Shown: positions 4,510 through 50,505 of the stretch, in pieces
Numbering within the stretch: position 1 is the stretch's first letter
Layout of the letters: each line of letters begins with the position of its first letter
IMG/VR virus record: IMGVR_UViG_3300047476_001402
Span: 26,384-90,383 of that record
Source of the DNA: a virus
Reading direction: 5' to 3' (one strand)
Length of the DNA stretch: 64,000 nt
The notes under the pieces: generated by a model
Databases searched by the model: none
What the model was told of the DNA's origin: nothing
What the model saw: the letters and a program-made list of their open reading frames with translations, nothing else
Program-made: the position numbers and the translations under genes

Positions 4510-4682
4510 GCGGGGGTAGCTCAGTGGTAGAGCGCATACCGAAAGGTATCCAAAACAAAGGCGATAAAAACATTGAACGAAAGTGGGTAACAAGTTGGCG
4601 GATTGGTCACATCTTCTAAATTTTCGAAATAAGAAGATAACATGTGAGAGGTCGGAGGTTCAATCCCTTCCCCTTCGCACCA
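4510..4682 (+). ncRNA. tRNA-like RNA with about 100-nt structured insertion replacing the anticodon arm
   Basis: 5' GCGGGGG-TA-GCTC-AGTGGTA-GAGC; 3' AGGTC-GGAGG-TTCAATC-CCTTC-CCCTTCGC-A-CCA; upstream TTGACA...TAATGT promoter. Confidence 0.75.
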
Positions 4683-34460: not shown

Positions 34461-34738
34461 ACTGATAGATCTGATATTAATTTGTTATACTCCCTTAAAC
34501 TAAACTTTACCCGTTCACCATTTTCTACAAATTTTATAGTGAAGATGGTTCTTCTTTTATTCGCTTCTAACACTATATTTGGGACAGTATCTACGAATTT
34601 CTTAAAATCTAACAAATCCTCCCATTCACTATAATCCCAATAGTCCTCATCAAGCTTTTTACAATGTTTATCGAAATATTCTATAATAATATTCTTAATA
34701 GTTTTCTTTAATGTATTTTTCATAACGTTTCTTGACAA
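34457..34738 (-). CDS. Hypothetical protein
   Basis: ORF; start uncertain. Confidence 0.5.
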   Translation of the reverse strand: MSRNVMKNTLKKTIKNIIIEYFDKHCKKLDEDYWDYSEWEDLLDFKKFVDTVPNIVLEANKRRTIFTIKFVENGERVKFSLREYNKLISDLSV

Positions 34739-35360
34739 TAGTTTTTAAATTATATCCCTTCTCGGAAATCTGTGGAATTAAATTATTTCTTAGCCAATTT
34801 CTGCGATAACCTTCATCAGTATTAGTTTCATCTTCTACAACGTATTGTTCCAAATCATAATCTTTTACGAATGCACGAAACTCTTCCTTTTCATTCAGAA
34901 TAAAGGGGCGAATAACAGTAAGATCAAAATCTTTATATTCAGTAACCAACGGAATCGGAAGATATTCAGGAACCCCATTCAAACAATTAAACATATAATT
35001 CTCACATGCATCGTCGATATGATGACCTGTGATTACATATCCCAGACCTGCCATTGCTTTATAGCGCAATGCTCTAAGGGTAGATTCGTCTTTAGGATCG
35101 GTGTCATCGTAATTACCATTTCTATAAGATTCTTCCCACCTAATATTAAAATCTTTACAAAAGGTAAAAACCGAATTAGACATAATCTCATTTTGTTCAC
35201 GAAGATTATGATTGAAATGAAAACATTGTAGATTAATCCTGGGGTAATAAATCTTTAGAAAAGCTGCAATAGCAAGACTATCTATGCCACCGCTACATGC
35301 AACGGTAACTTTATTGTTGGCTAACTTGAGAATCTGTGGAATGAACCGCATATTCCACAC
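34695..35360 (-). CDS. tilS: tRNA(Ile)-lysidine synthetase, catalytic domain only
   Basis: SGGIDS PP-loop, HFNHNLR, R.LRY, TGHH.DD..E, IRPF, D.TN, RNWLRN. Confidence 0.85.
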   Translation of the reverse strand: MWNMRFIPQILKLANNKVTVACSGGIDSLAIAAFLKIYYPRINLQCFHFNHNLREQNEIMSNSVFTFCKDFNIRWEESYRNGNYDDTDPKDESTLRALRYKAMAGLGYVITGHHIDDACENYMFNCLNGVPEYLPIPLVTEYKDFDLTVIRPFILNEKEEFRAFVKDYDLEQYVVEDETNTDEGYRRNWLRNNLIPQISEKGYNLKTIVKKRYEKYIKENY

Positions 35361-37708: not shown

Positions 37709-37768
37709 ATAAAACACCTTAAAAATTGCGCATTGTTAAGAGGCGTTCAAGGTTTGTAAACTACTTAT

Positions 37769-43843: not shown

Positions 43844-43922
43844 TGGTGGAGCTATAGGGATTTGAACCCTACTGATATTTTCATTGCAAGTGAAACGACC
43901 ACGCCAAGCAGTCCCTAGCCCC
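43844..43922 (-). tRNA. tRNA-Ala(TGC)
   Basis: GGGGCTA/TAGCTCC (G3:U70), TTTCA-CTTGCAA-TGAAA. Confidence 0.9.
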
Positions 43923-45020: not shown

Positions 45021-45127
45021 TGGTGGACTATATGAGATTCGAACTCACTCGGGGTTGCGCACTCCCTTTCCGATTGCATCATCAGAATCCCCTCTGATTA
45101 ATAACCTCGATGTTAATTAGCTAGCCC
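45021..45127 (-). ncRNA. tRNA-like RNA with G3:U70, no D stem and no anticodon (tmRNA-TLD-like)
   Basis: GGGCTAG/ATAGTCC-A-CCA; GTGAG-TTCGAAT-CTCAT; TCGAGGTT/AACCCCGA helix enclosing two hairpins. Confidence 0.7.
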
Positions 45128-47990: not shown

Positions 47991-48052
47991 TATCAAAGAT
48001 AGGATTTTAAACCTATATAGCCCGAGGGCATCTTCCATTAGATCACTCTGAT
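47991..48052 (-). ncRNA. Anticodon-less mini tRNA-like RNA
   Basis: ATCAGAG-TG-ATCT-AATGGA-AGAT-GCCCTCGGGC-TAT-ATAGG-TTTAAAAT-CCTAT-CTTTGAT-A. Confidence 0.65.
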
Positions 48053-48060
48053 ATATCTAC

Positions 48061-48669
48061 TTACTCAAACTTTCCTCCATCTACAAACTGTTGCCACTCT
48101 TCTCTCATAAATTTCATAGAATATGAATTTTTCGGTTTTTCTGGCTTCTTCAAAAGTTTCAGACCACATTCCTTTGGAGTTCTATCGCCCTTCCAGATAT
48201 TTAGAGCCTTCTGACATGTTGCAAGGTTTTCCCAAGTGTTTTGCCCACCTCTAGAAACTGGAAGAATATGATCAATGGAAATGTTATCCCTTGTGAGCTT
48301 TTCACCAGTATATAAACAAGTCCAATTATCGCGATCCCAAATATTACTCTTAGTAGGAAATACCGCCTTCTTGTTGACAATCTTATTAAATTTAGAACAC
48401 ACCACGATACTTGGCATACGGATACTTCCTTTAGAAGTTTTCACGTATTCATCATAATCTCTAAGCGGTAACTGTTTCCAAGATTCAAAATCTTTAACAA
48501 CTTCCATACTTACGATTTTTTTACGATCTACATTTCCCGCCTCATCAACATCGTACCAAACATCTAAAGGATGAACCGCACCAGAAAAGATATTAGTCAT
48601 AGTATCTTTCCAAGATTCTGTTCCGATAGGATAAAATCCCCTATTTAATTTTAATACTTCTTGTTTCAT
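48061..48669 (-). CDS. HNH endonuclease (McrA-like)
   Basis: VL.LN..F.P, NIWDRD.WTC.YTG, IDHILP.SRGG.NTWENL.TC...N..KGDRTP. Confidence 0.88.
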   Translation of the reverse strand: MKQEVLKLNRGFYPIGTESWKDTMTNIFSGAVHPLDVWYDVDEAGNVDRKKIVSMEVVKDFESWKQLPLRDYDEYVKTSKGSIRMPSIVVCSKFNKIVNKKAVFPTKSNIWDRDNWTCLYTGEKLTRDNISIDHILPVSRGGQNTWENLATCQKALNIWKGDRTPKECGLKLLKKPEKPKNSYSMKFMREEWQQFVDGGKFE

Positions 48670-48722
48670 TCAATATTCTACAACACTCCTTTCTTTTTGT
48701 CAATCATCTTCTGTAATTTAAC

Positions 48723-48866
48723 ATCCCCGCCTATCAGTTTCCATCCCTGATTTGGTTATTTTTTGCGTCTGATAAAACGCTTTCCTCCTTCCAGACTAGC
48801 GAGTATCAATTCGCACGGCTTTCTTCATCTGGTTTATTTGACGGGATTTTTAGACTTGCGTCCTAG
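48723..48866 (-). ncRNA. Putative multi-stem ncRNA
   Basis: ATCCCGTC/GGCGGGGAT closing stem around three hairpins; GC-rich intergenic island. Confidence 0.5.
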
Positions 48867-48875
48867 TTAAACAAA

Positions 48876-49100
48876 TTACGAACACATACATGTTCCATAG
48901 TCACAACAACAATTCGATGACCACACCTCGCAAAGGGAACACCAAGACATCTGACCGCCACACATATAACACGTTTCTGGGTAATTATATTTTCTATCGG
49001 CTTCCCGAGCTTTTATTCGTGCAGCATCTTTCCGACGTTTATTCTCACGTCTTCCTACGATGGGATTTTTCAAATAAAATCTGGTTAATGTTCTGTTCAT
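48876..49100 (-). CDS. Small Cys-rich protein
   Basis: CYMC...WCSLC...CCCDYGTCMCS. Confidence 0.55.
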   Translation of the reverse strand: MNRTLTRFYLKNPIVGRRENKRRKDAARIKAREADRKYNYPETCYMCGGQMSWCSLCEVWSSNCCCDYGTCMCS

Positions 49101-49107
49101 AATAAAT

Positions 49108-49169
49108 TGATGGACACGATGAGACTCGAACTCACAGTTGGAAACGCACTACCATTATGCTACATGCCC
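49108..49169 (-). ncRNA. Anticodon-less tRNA-like RNA with G3:U70 and A73
   Basis: GGGCATG-TA-GCAT-AATGGTA-GTGC-GTTTCCAACT-GTGAG-TTCGAGT-CTCAT-CGTGTCC-A-TCA. Confidence 0.75.
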
Positions 49170-49207
49170 ATATAACCATACTACCGAAACTGAAAAGGTC
49201 AACAACA

Positions 49208-50051
49208 TTAATCTTTAATCGGTTTCAATTCTAATCCATACAGCACTTCATCAAGTACAAGAAAATCAACATGTGCAGCAAATGCAAAATTTAATAATTG
49301 CATTCTAATATCTGCCAATTCTTCGGGAGTATAACCCCAAGTGGCTTGTAAATCATTTAAAATTTTATCAAGTGTAGGTGTTTTCATTTCCAAACTTTTT
49401 TATATGTTGTAACTTTCATTTCAATACTAGGCGAATCGCTTTCATAAAAACAACCACCATAATCAATTTCTGCTGATACTACGACTTGAATATCATCATT
49501 TTCAAAAACTGTATGACCCCAACGATCAACTTGTACTTCACTTAAAAGTTCTAAATGTAGTTTAGGTGGAATTCTCGCTGCCTTTTTCTTTGCCATATTA
49601 TTCGTATCTAGTCGATTTAAATCCACAAGAAGGGCAATGAACATTATATTGTCCTGGACATGATAGTAACATCATACCGGGACATGTGAACACCATTTCA
49701 ACCTCTCTATTTTCGGGCGGAAGAATACATTTAGGACAAGCAACTCTTGCTCCATTCCTAGAACTAAGCCTTCCGAAATGTTTATTATATTCATCAAGCG
49801 TTAACATGTTCTGAATTCCAATTCGTTATATAATTCCCATTATATTCTATTCCTATAAAATCCTCTGAAACGAATCTGCCCCACGGTCCAGACGGTCCTG
49901 AATTTTTCCATTCAATGTTTATAAACTTTTGAATTATATGAAAATATAACACATTCTCGAAAATTATGTCTTTTTCGGACGGACTTTCACTTTGTAGATA
50001 TAATATTCCTCCGTCGAATTTTCCACTGGTTATTTTAGGACAAACAAACAT
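49208..50051 (-). other. Run of four small hypothetical ORFs
   Basis: Co-oriented ORFs 49208-49393, 49384-about 49596, 49598-49807 (Zn ribbon), 49794-50051. Confidence 0.5.
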
Positions 50052-50052
50052 A

Positions 50053-50505
50053 TTATTGTAATTTCTGTCCTACTAATGTAGAAATTGTCTTATTATCAGT
50101 TGCACCGTTTGCGAGTTCCACGACACGTTTAATAACTTTACCCATGTCGCGTTTAGATGTAGCACCAAGCTCTGCAATTGCAGAATCAACCATATCACTC
50201 ACCTGATCATTTGTAAGAGCCGCAGGAAGGTATTCCTTGAGAATTGCCATCTCATTATACTCTCTGATAGCAAGGTCTGCCCTATTTGCCTTATCATAGG
50301 CATCAAAGGAATCCTCCCGTTGTGCAACCTGTTTACGCACAATTCCTAGAGCCTCTACATCGTCCAAAGGATTGTTCACGTTCCCCTTAATAATAGCAGC
50401 ATTCGTGAATGCATTCTTAAGTTGGCGTAATACTGCAAGTCTTCCTGAATCGGAATTCTTCATTGCAATTTTAATATCTTCGTTAATTTTTTCTTGTAGT
50501 TTCAT
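50053..50505 (-). CDS. yqeY: GatB/YqeY domain protein
   Basis: D.K.AMK, RKQV.QREDS...Y..A.R.DLA..E..E..IL..YLP, GATS.RDMGKV. Confidence 0.9.
   Translation of the reverse strand: MKLQEKINEDIKIAMKNSDSGRLAVLRQLKNAFTNAAIIKGNVNNPLDDVEALGIVRKQVAQREDSFDAYDKANRADLAIREYNEMAILKEYLPAALTNDQVSDMVDSAIAELGATSKRDMGKVIKRVVELANGATDNKTISTLVGQKLQ

What the first reader, a model, noticed from the sequence alone, without database searches (positions are those of the whole stretch)
49108..49202. Anticodon-less Ala-identity tRNA with its own promoter
Seen: 59 nt to the discriminator with near-consensus D and T arms, G3:U70 and A73; anticodon arm reduced to GTT-TCC-AAC. TTGACC-16-TATGGT would start transcription at about G1. 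A normal tRNA-Ala exists separately (43844). Inference: chargeable by host AlaRS but unable to decode, so a possible Ala donor for RqcH-type tailing, Fem/MprF-type transferases, or a decoy. The 3' TCA would need CCA repair.
Basis: partly seen in the sequence, partly recalled or inferred. Interest (0 to 1): 0.75.

Follow-up and report, generated by a model that had tools for sequence, protein, structure and literature searches.

The report
Anticodon-less alanine mini-tRNA with partner protein
A large freshwater phage carries a small removable gene cassette that encodes a 59-base tRNA lacking only its codon-reading arm, next to a tiny basic cysteine-rich protein; the same pair recurs in many uncultured phages and probably acts on the host's translation or tRNA machinery.

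Summary
On the minus strand, 49169-49111 is a 59-nt tRNA-like gene. It scores 42.1 bits on Rfam tRNA (threshold 29) and has intact acceptor, D and T arms, G3:U70 and A73. About 9 unpaired bases replace the anticodon arm. ARAGORN misses it.

It is not a decayed tRNA:
- Pattern scans of viral and metagenome contigs found 58 distinct fully paired anticodon-arm-less tRNA-likes.
- In the acceptor-unbiased scans, 15 of 37 carry G3:U70, against 3 of 33 canonical-length tRNAs in the same loci (p=0.003).

The new point is a partner. The 74-aa ORF 7 nt downstream (48876-49100) belongs to an unnamed family of 129 homologues, with an Arg/Lys-rich arm and an eight-Cys C-terminal motif. A protein-anchored search found 17 loci. 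13 have a 57-61-nt mini-tRNA beside the gene: 12 directly adjacent, one 292 nt away. The four without it encode proteins that lack the basic arm.

A lake-metagenome contig of a close relative skips exactly 48871-49206, so promoter-like site, RNA and ORF form one 336-bp accessory cassette.

The function is inferred: an Ala-chargeable, non-decoding tRNA mimic working as an RNP. The closest parallels are tmRNA's tRNA-like domain with SmpB and the CDS-less tmRNA of phage DS6A. The RqcH/Fem/MprF ideas have no support. This scan had already noted the same module on other phage DNA (e1-5801566, e1-5319515).

The parts
49111..49169 (-). Mini-tRNA body, 59 nt from G1 to discriminator A73. It has a 7-bp acceptor stem with G3:U70, a 4-bp D stem with a 7-nt D loop, a 10-nt unpaired linker in place of positions 26-48, and a 5-bp T stem with a TTCGAGT loop.
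   Evidence: Rfam tRNA 42.1 bits. Own model R1 63.8 bits, the only strong hit in the window. Fold. Family covariation.
49108..49110 (-). 3' tail TCA, where the window's canonical tRNAs and 9 of 23 module relatives have CCA.
   Evidence: TCA also occurs in L078, L126 and L154 (module loci) and in L012 (contig edge).
49175..49202 (-). Sigma-70-like site TTGACC-16-TATGGT. It ends 5 nt before G1 and lies inside the cassette.
   Evidence: 9 of 12 matches, 32 sites against 23.5 expected, so weak. Inside the skipped segment. Similar sites only in L078 and L132.
48876..49100 (-). 74-aa partner ORF. Residues 1-43 form an Arg/Lys-rich arm (14 K/R, net +9). The C-terminal 31 residues carry an eight-Cys motif that ends in C-x-C-S and the stop codon.
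   Evidence: 129 homologues. Invariant C44 C47 C54 C57 C64 G69 C71 C73. No Pfam or PHROG match.
48871..49206 (.). 336-bp presence/absence cassette holding the promoter-like site, the mini-tRNA and the ORF.
   Evidence: table 5. One contig of DNA run X6 (record 7, 335 nt, 7 mismatches) joins 48870 to 49207 and skips exactly these 336 nt.

Best explanation
49169-49111 is a working gene for a non-decoding, alanine-type mini-tRNA. With the 74-aa basic, cysteine-rich (probably zinc-binding) protein encoded 7 nt downstream, it forms a 336-bp accessory cassette that moves among uncultured phages.

Most likely mechanism:
1. The RNA is cut out and matured like the neighbouring tRNAs, by RNase P at the 5' end and by trimming and CCA addition at the 3' end.
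2. Host AlaRS recognises it through G2-C71, G3:U70 and A73 and needs no anticodon.
3. The protein's Arg/Lys arm binds it.
4. The resulting particle engages the translation apparatus (EF-Tu, ribosomal A site, or the tmRNA-SmpB pathway) without reading a codon. This would parallel tmRNA's tRNA-like domain with SmpB, or the CDS-less tmRNA of phage DS6A, which inhibits host tmRNA.

Shown here: the RNA's architecture and its conservation, the gene linkage, the link between the basic arm and the presence of the RNA, and the cassette indel.

Inferred only: expression, processing, charging with alanine, protein-RNA binding, and the target.
For: RNA:
- The Rfam tRNA match lacks only the anticodon arm.
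- There are 58 distinct fully paired anticodon-arm-less relatives.
- In the RNA scan that fixed GGG...TCCA but left stem pairs 4-7:66-69 free, 27 of 37 loci had all four free pairs formed. About 2% is expected by chance.
- 12 of 16 pairs show double-sided changes, while G3:U70 stays fixed in that set. That set was chosen for pairing and for G3:U70.
- G3:U70 is enriched: 15 of 37 against 3 of 33, Fisher p=0.0029.
- The elbow nucleotides A14, G18, G19 and A21 are kept even where the search pattern left the D loop free.
- Where canonical tRNAs lie in the same locus, the element is on their strand (all such loci but L096), sometimes 4-7 nt away.

Protein link:
- Homologues of the 74-aa ORF lie directly beside the mini-tRNA in 18 of the 66 RNA-anchored loci compared.
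- The protein-anchored search gave 17 loci. 13 have a 57-61-nt R1 hit on the same strand, 12 of them directly adjacent and one 292 nt away.
- Six of those 13 were new to the RNA scans.
- The 4 viral loci without the RNA (3 distinct) and the 4 genome-contig loci (3 distinct) encode arm-less proteins.
- Net charge of the arm is +4 to +13 in the 22 RNA-linked proteins that could be scored, and -7 to 0 in 6 RNA-less ones.
- Seven further protein records read through an upstream D-arm/T-arm in frame.

Cassette: the exact 336-bp skip in a near-identical lake contig.

Precedent: the DS6A CDS-less tmRNA has G3:U70 and A73 followed by CUA, and scores 43.2 bits on Rfam tmRNA. It is reported to inhibit E. 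coli tmRNA (passage read in PMC11915505).
Against: - There is no expression evidence for the module. The one RNA-library contig laid covers 48715-48873, just outside it.
- The window copy ends in TCA, not CCA, so charging needs 3' repair or a tolerance that is untested.
- G3:U70 is absent from 4 of the 13 protein-anchored RNAs and 6 of the 22 distinct module RNAs. Alanine identity therefore cannot be essential for every member.
- The RNA has a normal D stem, unlike any tmRNA tRNA-like domain.
- The protein shows no similarity to SmpB. Its best PDB sequence match is ribosomal protein bL32 at a non-significant E of 0.42.
- Gene order varies between RNA-ORF and ORF-RNA.
- The module is dispensable in a close relative.
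Confidence: 0.35

Rival explanations
1. An uncleavable decoy against tRNA-targeting anti-phage defence. The mini-tRNA, held or delivered by its protein, presents the acceptor/T/D 'upper half' that such nucleases or tRNA-modifying toxins dock on, but has no anticodon arm to cut. It would soak up or block the effector.
For: - Defence nucleases that remove or cut the anticodon arm are documented: P2 OLD (abstract of PMC12445682) and a Schlafen-like nuclease (passage in PMC13434031).
- The module is an accessory, patchily distributed cassette, as anti-defence genes usually are.
- It sits in tRNA arrays.
- In 4 of 21 module loci it lies within 3 kb of an RNA ligase of the tRNA-repair type: PF09414 scanned in L161 with a blastp relative in L150, and PF09511 scanned in L152 with a blastp relative in L087.
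- Not all members need G3:U70, which fits a decoy better than an Ala donor.
Against: - No defence system or target is known for the host.
- The enrichment and persistence of G3:U70 and A73 have no obvious reason in a pure decoy.
- RNA ligase neighbours occur in a minority of loci, and such regions collect many unrelated small genes.
Confidence: 0.25
2. A cis-acting element of the small gene's own transcript. The tRNA shape would serve as an RNase P/RNase Z cutting mark or end-protector ('punctuation'), or as an operator that the basic protein binds to control its own synthesis. It would have no role for the free RNA.
For: - The RNA is always on the same strand as the ORF and directly adjacent in all but one module locus (292 nt in L150).
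- The start codon lies 3-11 nt after the RNA's 3' end in RNA-first members.
- The nucleotide before G1 is a pyrimidine in 20 of 21 members, as in tRNA leaders.
- A basic protein binding a tRNA-like operator has precedents (recalled: thrS, ribosomal-protein operons).
Against: - Gene order is reversed in 8 members. This does not fit an operator at the start codon.
- CCA is encoded in 9 of 23 module loci, and G3:U70 with A73 is kept. A cutting mark does not need either.
- G3:U70 mini-tRNAs also occur without the protein inside tRNA arrays (L017, L036, L111, L142 and others).
- The missing Shine-Dalgarno sequence is ordinary in this phage, where 3 of 36 genes have one.
Confidence: 0.15
3. One reading: an Ala-charged donor for a non-ribosomal transferase (RqcH-type tailing, Fem/MprF-type transfer), or simply a sink for AlaRS.
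For: The alanine identity set is present and enriched in the family. AlaRS is anticodon-independent (recalled).
Against: - No transferase of these kinds was found among the 20 flanking window ORFs scanned against Pfam, nor among the recurrent neighbour families of the 21 module loci.
- The only constant neighbour is a 58-78-aa protein too small to be such an enzyme.
- From recall, RqcH reads the anticodon.
- 4 of the 13 protein-anchored members lack G3:U70.
Confidence: 0.07
4. A decaying tRNA pseudogene that lost its anticodon arm by deletion.
For: ARAGORN does not call it. Its fold energy is no better than shuffles. The 3' end is TCA.
Against: - All 16 base pairs are intact.
- Dozens of diverged relatives keep the same architecture through compensatory changes.
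- It is linked to a conserved protein gene.
- It is unlike the resident tRNA-Ala in its D and T arms, so it is not a recent deletion copy.
Confidence: 0.03

Closest known systems
CDS-less ('tRNA-like domain only') tmRNA: mycobacteriophage DS6A, jakobid mitochondria, Mallomonadaceae plastids
   Same: - A short RNA with an alanine acceptor stem (G3:U70, A73) and a T arm, and no way of reading a codon.
- In DS6A it is phage-encoded, and the tail after A73 is CUA, not CCA.
- DS6A's RNA is reported to inhibit host tmRNA (passage in PMC11915505).
   Different: - DS6A's 83-nt RNA has no D stem. A P2 helix stands where the anticodon arm would be.
- It matches Rfam tmRNA at 43.2 bits but my model R1 at only 16.3 bits.
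- The window RNA has a canonical 4-bp D arm and an unpaired linker, is best matched by the tRNA model, and comes with its own small protein.
tmRNA tRNA-like domain with SmpB
   Same: An alanine-accepting upper half of a tRNA paired with a dedicated small basic RNA-binding protein that, in tmRNA, stands in for the anticodon arm (recalled; abstracts of PMC3985003 and PMC3929946 seen in the listing).
   Different: There is no mRNA-like domain and there are no pseudoknots. The protein is 58-78 aa with an eight-Cys motif and has no match to SmpB or to any Pfam family. Binding and ribosome entry are untested.
Canonical tRNA-Ala (for example the window's own at 43844-43922)
   Same: G1-C72, G2-C71, G3:U70, A73, the D-loop GG and the T-loop TTCGA. 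Same strand and region as 18 canonical tRNAs.
   Different: The anticodon arm and the usual variable loop are replaced by about 9 nt. The tail is TCA, not CCA. The D and T arms are unlike those of the resident tRNA-Ala.
Synthetic alanine minihelices and microhelices (Francklyn and Schimmel 1989; recalled, not read here)
   Same: They show that an acceptor stem with G3:U70 is enough for AlaRS. This is the biochemical basis for expecting the mini-tRNA to be charged.
   Different: They are laboratory constructs without a D arm. This is a natural gene that keeps the whole tRNA elbow.
Bacteriophage T4 species 1 and 2 stable RNAs (rnaC, rnaD) of the T4 tRNA cluster (recalled; also named in earlier scan notes)
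   Same: Non-decoding tRNA-related stable RNAs encoded inside a phage tRNA region. Their function is unknown.
   Different: They are larger, have no reported alanine identity, and have no dedicated partner protein. Not compared by sequence here.

Membership tests
tRNA (Rfam RF00005) | Scores above the family's gathering threshold | tested here: met
   42.1 bits against 29.
tRNA (Rfam RF00005) | Anticodon arm with a 7-nt loop and an anticodon | tested here: not met
   17 model positions are replaced by 4 nt. ARAGORN makes no call. The linker is unpaired in the fold.
tRNA (Rfam RF00005) | 7-bp acceptor stem, D arm and T arm with elbow nucleotides | tested here: met
   7, 4 and 5 pairs. U8, A14, the D-loop GG, A21 and TTCGA are present.
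tRNA-Ala identity set (AlaRS substrates) | G3:U70 wobble pair | tested here: met
   Acceptor strands GGGCAUG / CGUGUCC. The pair is kept in 15 of 37 distinct sequences from the unbiased scans and in 9 of 13 protein-anchored relatives.
tRNA-Ala identity set (AlaRS substrates) | A73 discriminator and G2-C71 | tested here: met
   Both present. A73 is present in all 13 protein-anchored RNAs.
tRNA-Ala identity set (AlaRS substrates) | 3' CCA end | tested here: not met
   The DNA encodes TCA. 12 of 13 canonical tRNAs in the window encode CCA. Addition after transcription is possible but untested.
tRNA-Ala identity set (AlaRS substrates) | Actual aminoacylation with alanine | not testable with these tools
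   Needs an AlaRS assay.
tmRNA, including CDS-less forms | tRNA-like domain without a D stem, closed by helix P2 | tested here: not met
   The window RNA has a 4-bp D stem and no P2. DS6A shows the tmRNA layout.
tmRNA, including CDS-less forms | Match to a tmRNA covariance model or to ARAGORN's tmRNA search | tested here: inconclusive
   ARAGORN reports no tmRNA. Rfam lists only tRNA at this place, but lower-scoring matches from the same clan are hidden.
tmRNA, including CDS-less forms | Works with SmpB | not tested
   The host is unknown. The neighbouring protein is not SmpB-like.
Mini-tRNA plus Cys-rich basic protein module (unnamed; defined here and in earlier scan notes) | A 57-61-nt RNA with acceptor, D and T arms and a short linker | tested here: met
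   R1 scores 63.8 bits, the top and only strong hit in the window.
Mini-tRNA plus Cys-rich basic protein module (unnamed; defined here and in earlier scan notes) | An adjacent same-strand ORF ending in the eight-Cys motif and carrying an Arg/Lys-rich arm | tested here: met
   48876-49100 is 34-49% identical to the 17 other members of the alignment. All invariant Cys residues are present and the arm has net charge +9.

The most novel reading that the evidence does not exclude
The mini-tRNA and its zinc-type basic protein form a two-part 'protein-completed tRNA'. The RNA would be charged with alanine by host AlaRS. The protein would fill the place of the missing anticodon arm. The particle would then enter ribosomal A sites without a codon. 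That would make it a portable, phage-borne minimal counterpart of tmRNA-SmpB. It could free ribosomes stalled by host defence without tagging the product, or block the host's own trans-translation.
Probability: 0.15. Interest if true: 0.9.

Novelty: new variant of a known kind. Interest (0 to 1): 0.72.

Why it matters
Phage tRNA genes are usually read as codon-supply or as replacements for tRNAs cut by host defences. This RNA cannot decode. Even so, selection keeps its tRNA elbow, usually its alanine marks, and a dedicated partner protein of an unnamed family, and the pair travels as a 336-bp cassette.

If the RNA is charged, this would be a natural use of the anticodon-independence of AlaRS outside tmRNA. 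It would also be a second, independent RNA-protein solution to building 'a tRNA without an anticodon'.

The cassette is small enough to synthesise. It can be tested directly for charging, RNP formation, ribosome binding, tmRNA interference and protection from tRNA-targeting defence systems.

The family is invisible to ARAGORN. Three single-sequence tblastn searches of 50,697 deposited phage genomes did not find the protein. It has therefore escaped annotation.

Tried and rejected
Searches that led nowhere:
- Megablast and blastn of the region against deposited phages gave no match.
- The YqeY neighbour gave 2 loci without any RNA.
- The HNH neighbour gave 10 loci. These are mobile genes in other tRNA arrays and none holds a mini-tRNA.
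- The 74-aa ORF as a single query in viral contigs found nothing. The alignment later succeeded.
- tblastn of three family members against deposited phages found nothing. The low-complexity filter may hide some matches.
Only 5 of the 120 are family members, all arm-less.
- Pfam, PHROGs, PDB sequences and the ESM Atlas gave no family for the protein. The 133-148-aa long form has an extra N-terminal domain that is also unnamed.
- Neighbour clustering found no constant third gene.

Sequencing runs:
- The RNA-library run X5 does not cover the module. This says nothing either way about expression.
- The small-share runs were not used for habitat, beyond noting that the holders are labelled freshwater or lake.

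Ideas considered and dropped:
- The 3-bp hairpin in the linker.
- A leaderless-mRNA reading of the short spacer. This phage hardly uses Shine-Dalgarno sequences at all.
- The idea that the mini-tRNA is a recent deletion copy of the resident tRNA-Ala.
- My first count of G3:U70 among ARAGORN tRNAs parsed the 3' ends unreliably. The matched-pattern control replaces it.

Literature: six full-text searches returned no description of phage anticodon-arm-less tRNA genes or of this gene pair. Supplements were not available, and subscription journals are not covered.

- The look-up of encoding contigs. The contigs of the 129 homologues could therefore not be checked.
- Structure prediction.

Full report
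WHAT IS THERE

The window is part of a 90-kb IMG/VR virus record that CheckV rates 34% complete, so it is a fragment of a large phage. ARAGORN finds 18 tRNA genes, all on the minus strand between 37 and 55.6 kb. None lies at the finding.

Rfam's tRNA model matches 49169..49111 on the minus strand at 42.1 bits (threshold 29). The match runs over the whole model, except that the 17 positions of the anticodon arm are replaced by 4 nt.

Read directly, the RNA has these parts:
- a 7-bp acceptor stem with G1-C72, G2-C71 and G3:U70;
- U8 and A9;
- a 4-bp D stem closing AAUGGUA;
- 10 unpaired nt;
- a 5-bp T stem closing UUCGAGU;
- A73, followed by UCA.

The predicted fold is these three helices with the linker open. 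The energy alone is not unusual (z -0.77). Many relatives have 7-9-nt linkers, too short for such a hairpin.

The window's real tRNA-Ala (43844-43922) also has G3:U70, A73 and CCA, but different D and T arms. The mini-tRNA is therefore not a fresh deletion copy of it. Twelve of the 13 Rfam-delimited canonical tRNAs encode CCA; the mini-tRNA has TCA.

IS IT MORE THAN A BROKEN tRNA?

I scanned IMG/VR and the JGI/ENA metagenome contigs for a D arm followed too closely by a T loop, leaving the acceptor stem free. That gave 17 and 82 loci.

A second scan of IMG/VR fixed GGG...UCCA but left the D loop and stem pairs 4-7:66-69 free. It gave 37 loci, and in 27 of them all four free acceptor pairs form, against about 2% expected by chance.

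Over all loci there are 58 distinct sequences with 7/7, 4/4 and 5/5 pairs and a linker of 5-15 nt.

In the acceptor-unbiased scans, 15 of 37 distinct sequences have G3:U70, and 13 of those 15 have the full GGG/UCC. Among canonical-length tRNAs parsed the same way in the held loci, 3 of 33 have G3:U70 (Fisher p=0.0029).

On an alignment of 33 G3:U70 members, 12 of 16 pairs show changes on both sides. That set was chosen for pairing and for G3:U70, so the count describes turnover and does not prove structure.

Where canonical tRNAs share the locus, the element is on their strand (all such loci but L096). In five loci it lies only 4-7 nt from one.

A single U70-to-C change would strengthen the helix. 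Its persistence while positions 4-7 turn over therefore argues for selection on the wobble pair in most lineages.

THE PARTNER PROTEIN

I compared all ORFs of 66 RNA-bearing loci with the window's ORFs. The 74-aa ORF that starts 7 nt after the TCA (48876-49100) has homologues directly beside the mini-tRNA in 18 loci, on the same strand. Of the loci whose order was examined, the RNA comes first in 14 and the ORF first in 8.

The proteins share two features:
- an Arg/Lys-rich N-terminal arm;
- a C-terminal motif with eight Cys that ends C-x-C-S-stop, with invariant C44, C47, C54, C57, C64, G69, C71 and C73.

A profile search finds 129 homologues of 46-136 aa, nearly all unnamed or called hypothetical, plus 12 longer forms. 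There is no Pfam or PHROG family. The best PDB sequence match is ribosomal protein bL32 at E=0.42, which is not significant.

As a test independent of any RNA pattern, I searched IMG/VR with the protein alignment and got 17 loci. A covariance model of the RNA (R1) finds a 57-61-nt hit on the same strand in 13 of them. Twelve are directly adjacent and one is 292 nt away. Six of these 13 are on contigs that the RNA scans had not found.

The other four loci (three distinct) have no hit even without filters. Their proteins carry a Cys-rich or acidic N-terminus in place of the basic arm. The same holds for the family members found in bacterial genome contigs.

Net charge of the arm is +4 to +13 in the 22 RNA-linked proteins that could be scored, and -7 to 0 in 6 RNA-less ones.

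Seven further database proteins have over-extended N-termini that are the in-frame translation of a T arm, preceded in five of them by D-arm sequence about 10-15 nt away.

The basic arm and the RNA therefore come and go together. This is the best indication, short of an experiment, that they bind each other.

A CASSETTE

I laid public contigs on 48000-50500. One lake-metagenome DNA contig is near-identical on both sides (7 mismatches in 335 nt) and joins 48870 to 49207.

The 336 nt it lacks run from one base after the stop codon of the upstream ORF to five bases after the stop codon of the 74-aa ORF. They hold three things:
- the TTGACC-16-TATGGT site;
- the mini-tRNA;
- the ORF.

The module is thus a discrete, dispensable unit.

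By itself, however, the site matches 9 of 12 and is one of 32 in 5.5 kb where shuffles give 23.5. Only L078 and L132 among 14 RNA-first relatives have a similar site.

This phage hardly uses Shine-Dalgarno sequences (3 of 36 genes). The bare spacer before the ORF is therefore ordinary. The host's promoter type is uncertain.

WHAT ARGUES AGAINST THE ALANINE READING

G3:U70 is not universal. Of the 13 protein-anchored RNAs, 9 have it and 4 do not: two have G3:C70, one C3:G70 and one U3:G70. All 13 have A73.

Of 22 distinct module RNAs overall, 16 have G3:U70.

The tail after the discriminator is CCA in 9 of 23 module loci and TCA in 4. In L078, TCA stands against CCA in otherwise identical RNAs. 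The tail is something else in the other 10.

No RNA data cover the module.

MECHANISM

Established knowledge, recalled and not read here: AlaRS recognises G3:U70 in the acceptor stem and charges anticodon-less minihelices. EF-Tu binds the acceptor/T-arm half of a tRNA.

The RNA keeps what RNase P, the CCA-adding enzyme, AlaRS, EF-Tu and the ribosome's elbow contacts need, and it drops only what decoding needs.

The nearest precedent is tmRNA's tRNA-like domain with SmpB, and above all the CDS-less forms. Passages of PMC11915505 report such RNAs in jakobid mitochondria, in Mallomonadaceae plastids and in phage DS6A, and say the DS6A RNA inhibits E. coli tmRNA.

I fetched DS6A. Its 83-nt RNA has G3:U70, and A73 followed by CUA. 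It has no D stem, and a P2 helix stands in place of the anticodon arm. It scores 43.2 bits on Rfam tmRNA but only 16.3 on my model.

The window RNA is therefore an analogue built from a tRNA and not a tmRNA.

My best reading (0.35) is an Ala-chargeable tRNA mimic that, with its protein, engages the translation machinery without a codon.

The main rival (0.25) is an uncleavable decoy for tRNA-targeting defence. Two observations favour it:
- Nucleases that amputate anticodon arms exist (abstract of PMC12445682).
- In 4 of 21 module loci an RNA ligase of a tRNA-repair type lies within 3 kb.

A purely cis-acting processing or operator element (0.15) fits the tight spacing. It does not fit the reversed gene orders, the encoded CCA, or the protein-less G3:U70 mini-tRNAs inside tRNA arrays.

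A pseudogene is excluded for practical purposes.

NOVELTY

Six literature searches found no description. Deposited phage genomes show no match to the protein.

After I had found the module, look-ups in this scan's earlier notes showed it had been described on other phage DNA (e1-5801566, e1-5319515). Those notes agree with mine and gave me the DS6A lead.

Noticed in passing
window 48715-48873 (- strand): The 159-nt intergenic stretch between the cassette and the HNH gene folds with its two ends paired (-37.2 kcal/mol, z -2.46). The only contig from an RNA library that was laid covers exactly this stretch. That contig is circularly permuted and joins 48715 back to 48873 (tables 5 and 8). This could be a stable or circular small RNA, or an assembly artefact. 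No Rfam match.
   Followed up: partly
window 4514-4552 (+ strand): A 39-nt element with GGG...UCCA ends and a canonical D arm but no T arm. R1 scores it 24.9 bits. It is another cut-down tRNA mimic, outside the tRNA region.
   Followed up: partly
window 45024-45066 (- strand): A T arm almost identical to the mini-tRNA's, followed by ...GUCC-A-CCA, but without a convincing 5' acceptor strand. R1 scores it 12.6 bits.
   Followed up: no
window 37716-37752 (- strand): A near-threshold match to the Rfam abiF RNA: 35.9 bits against a gathering score of 37.
   Followed up: no
L014 350-410, 2052-2113, 3556-3610; also L049, L088, L075: A different anticodon-arm-less type with A1-U72, C3:G70 and A73. 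There are three copies in L014 (a 13.5-kb stretch of a 180-kb viral contig), each followed by TTGGAG or TAGGAG. No Cys-rich protein lies beside them.
   Followed up: no
L013 / L021: An anticodon-arm-less tRNA-like with G at -1 opposite C73, the histidine-type acceptor mark (read by eye). Like alanine, histidine identity lies largely in the acceptor end (recalled).
   Followed up: no
P0016, P0023, P0126 (and P0121-P0128): A long form of the partner protein (133-148 aa) has an extra conserved N-terminal domain of about 70 aa before the basic arm. This domain also has no Pfam or PHROG match.
   Followed up: partly
window, whole: Only 3 of 36 larger genes have a Shine-Dalgarno-like motif. This points to a host that starts translation without one. 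The tRNA region also holds a PP-loop (TilS-type) ATPase gene at 34695-35360, a YqeY-domain gene at 50053-50505 and at least three HNH endonuclease genes.
   Followed up: partly
L010 7526-8013: A GOLLD RNA (152.2 bits, threshold 150) sits inside another phage's tRNA array, which was fetched through the HNH homologue.
   Followed up: no
L089 / L097: Here the partner ORF lies between an upstream tRNA-like T arm and a downstream mini-tRNA whose acceptor stem has U3:A70 and G73. The module can therefore carry a non-alanine acceptor.
   Followed up: partly
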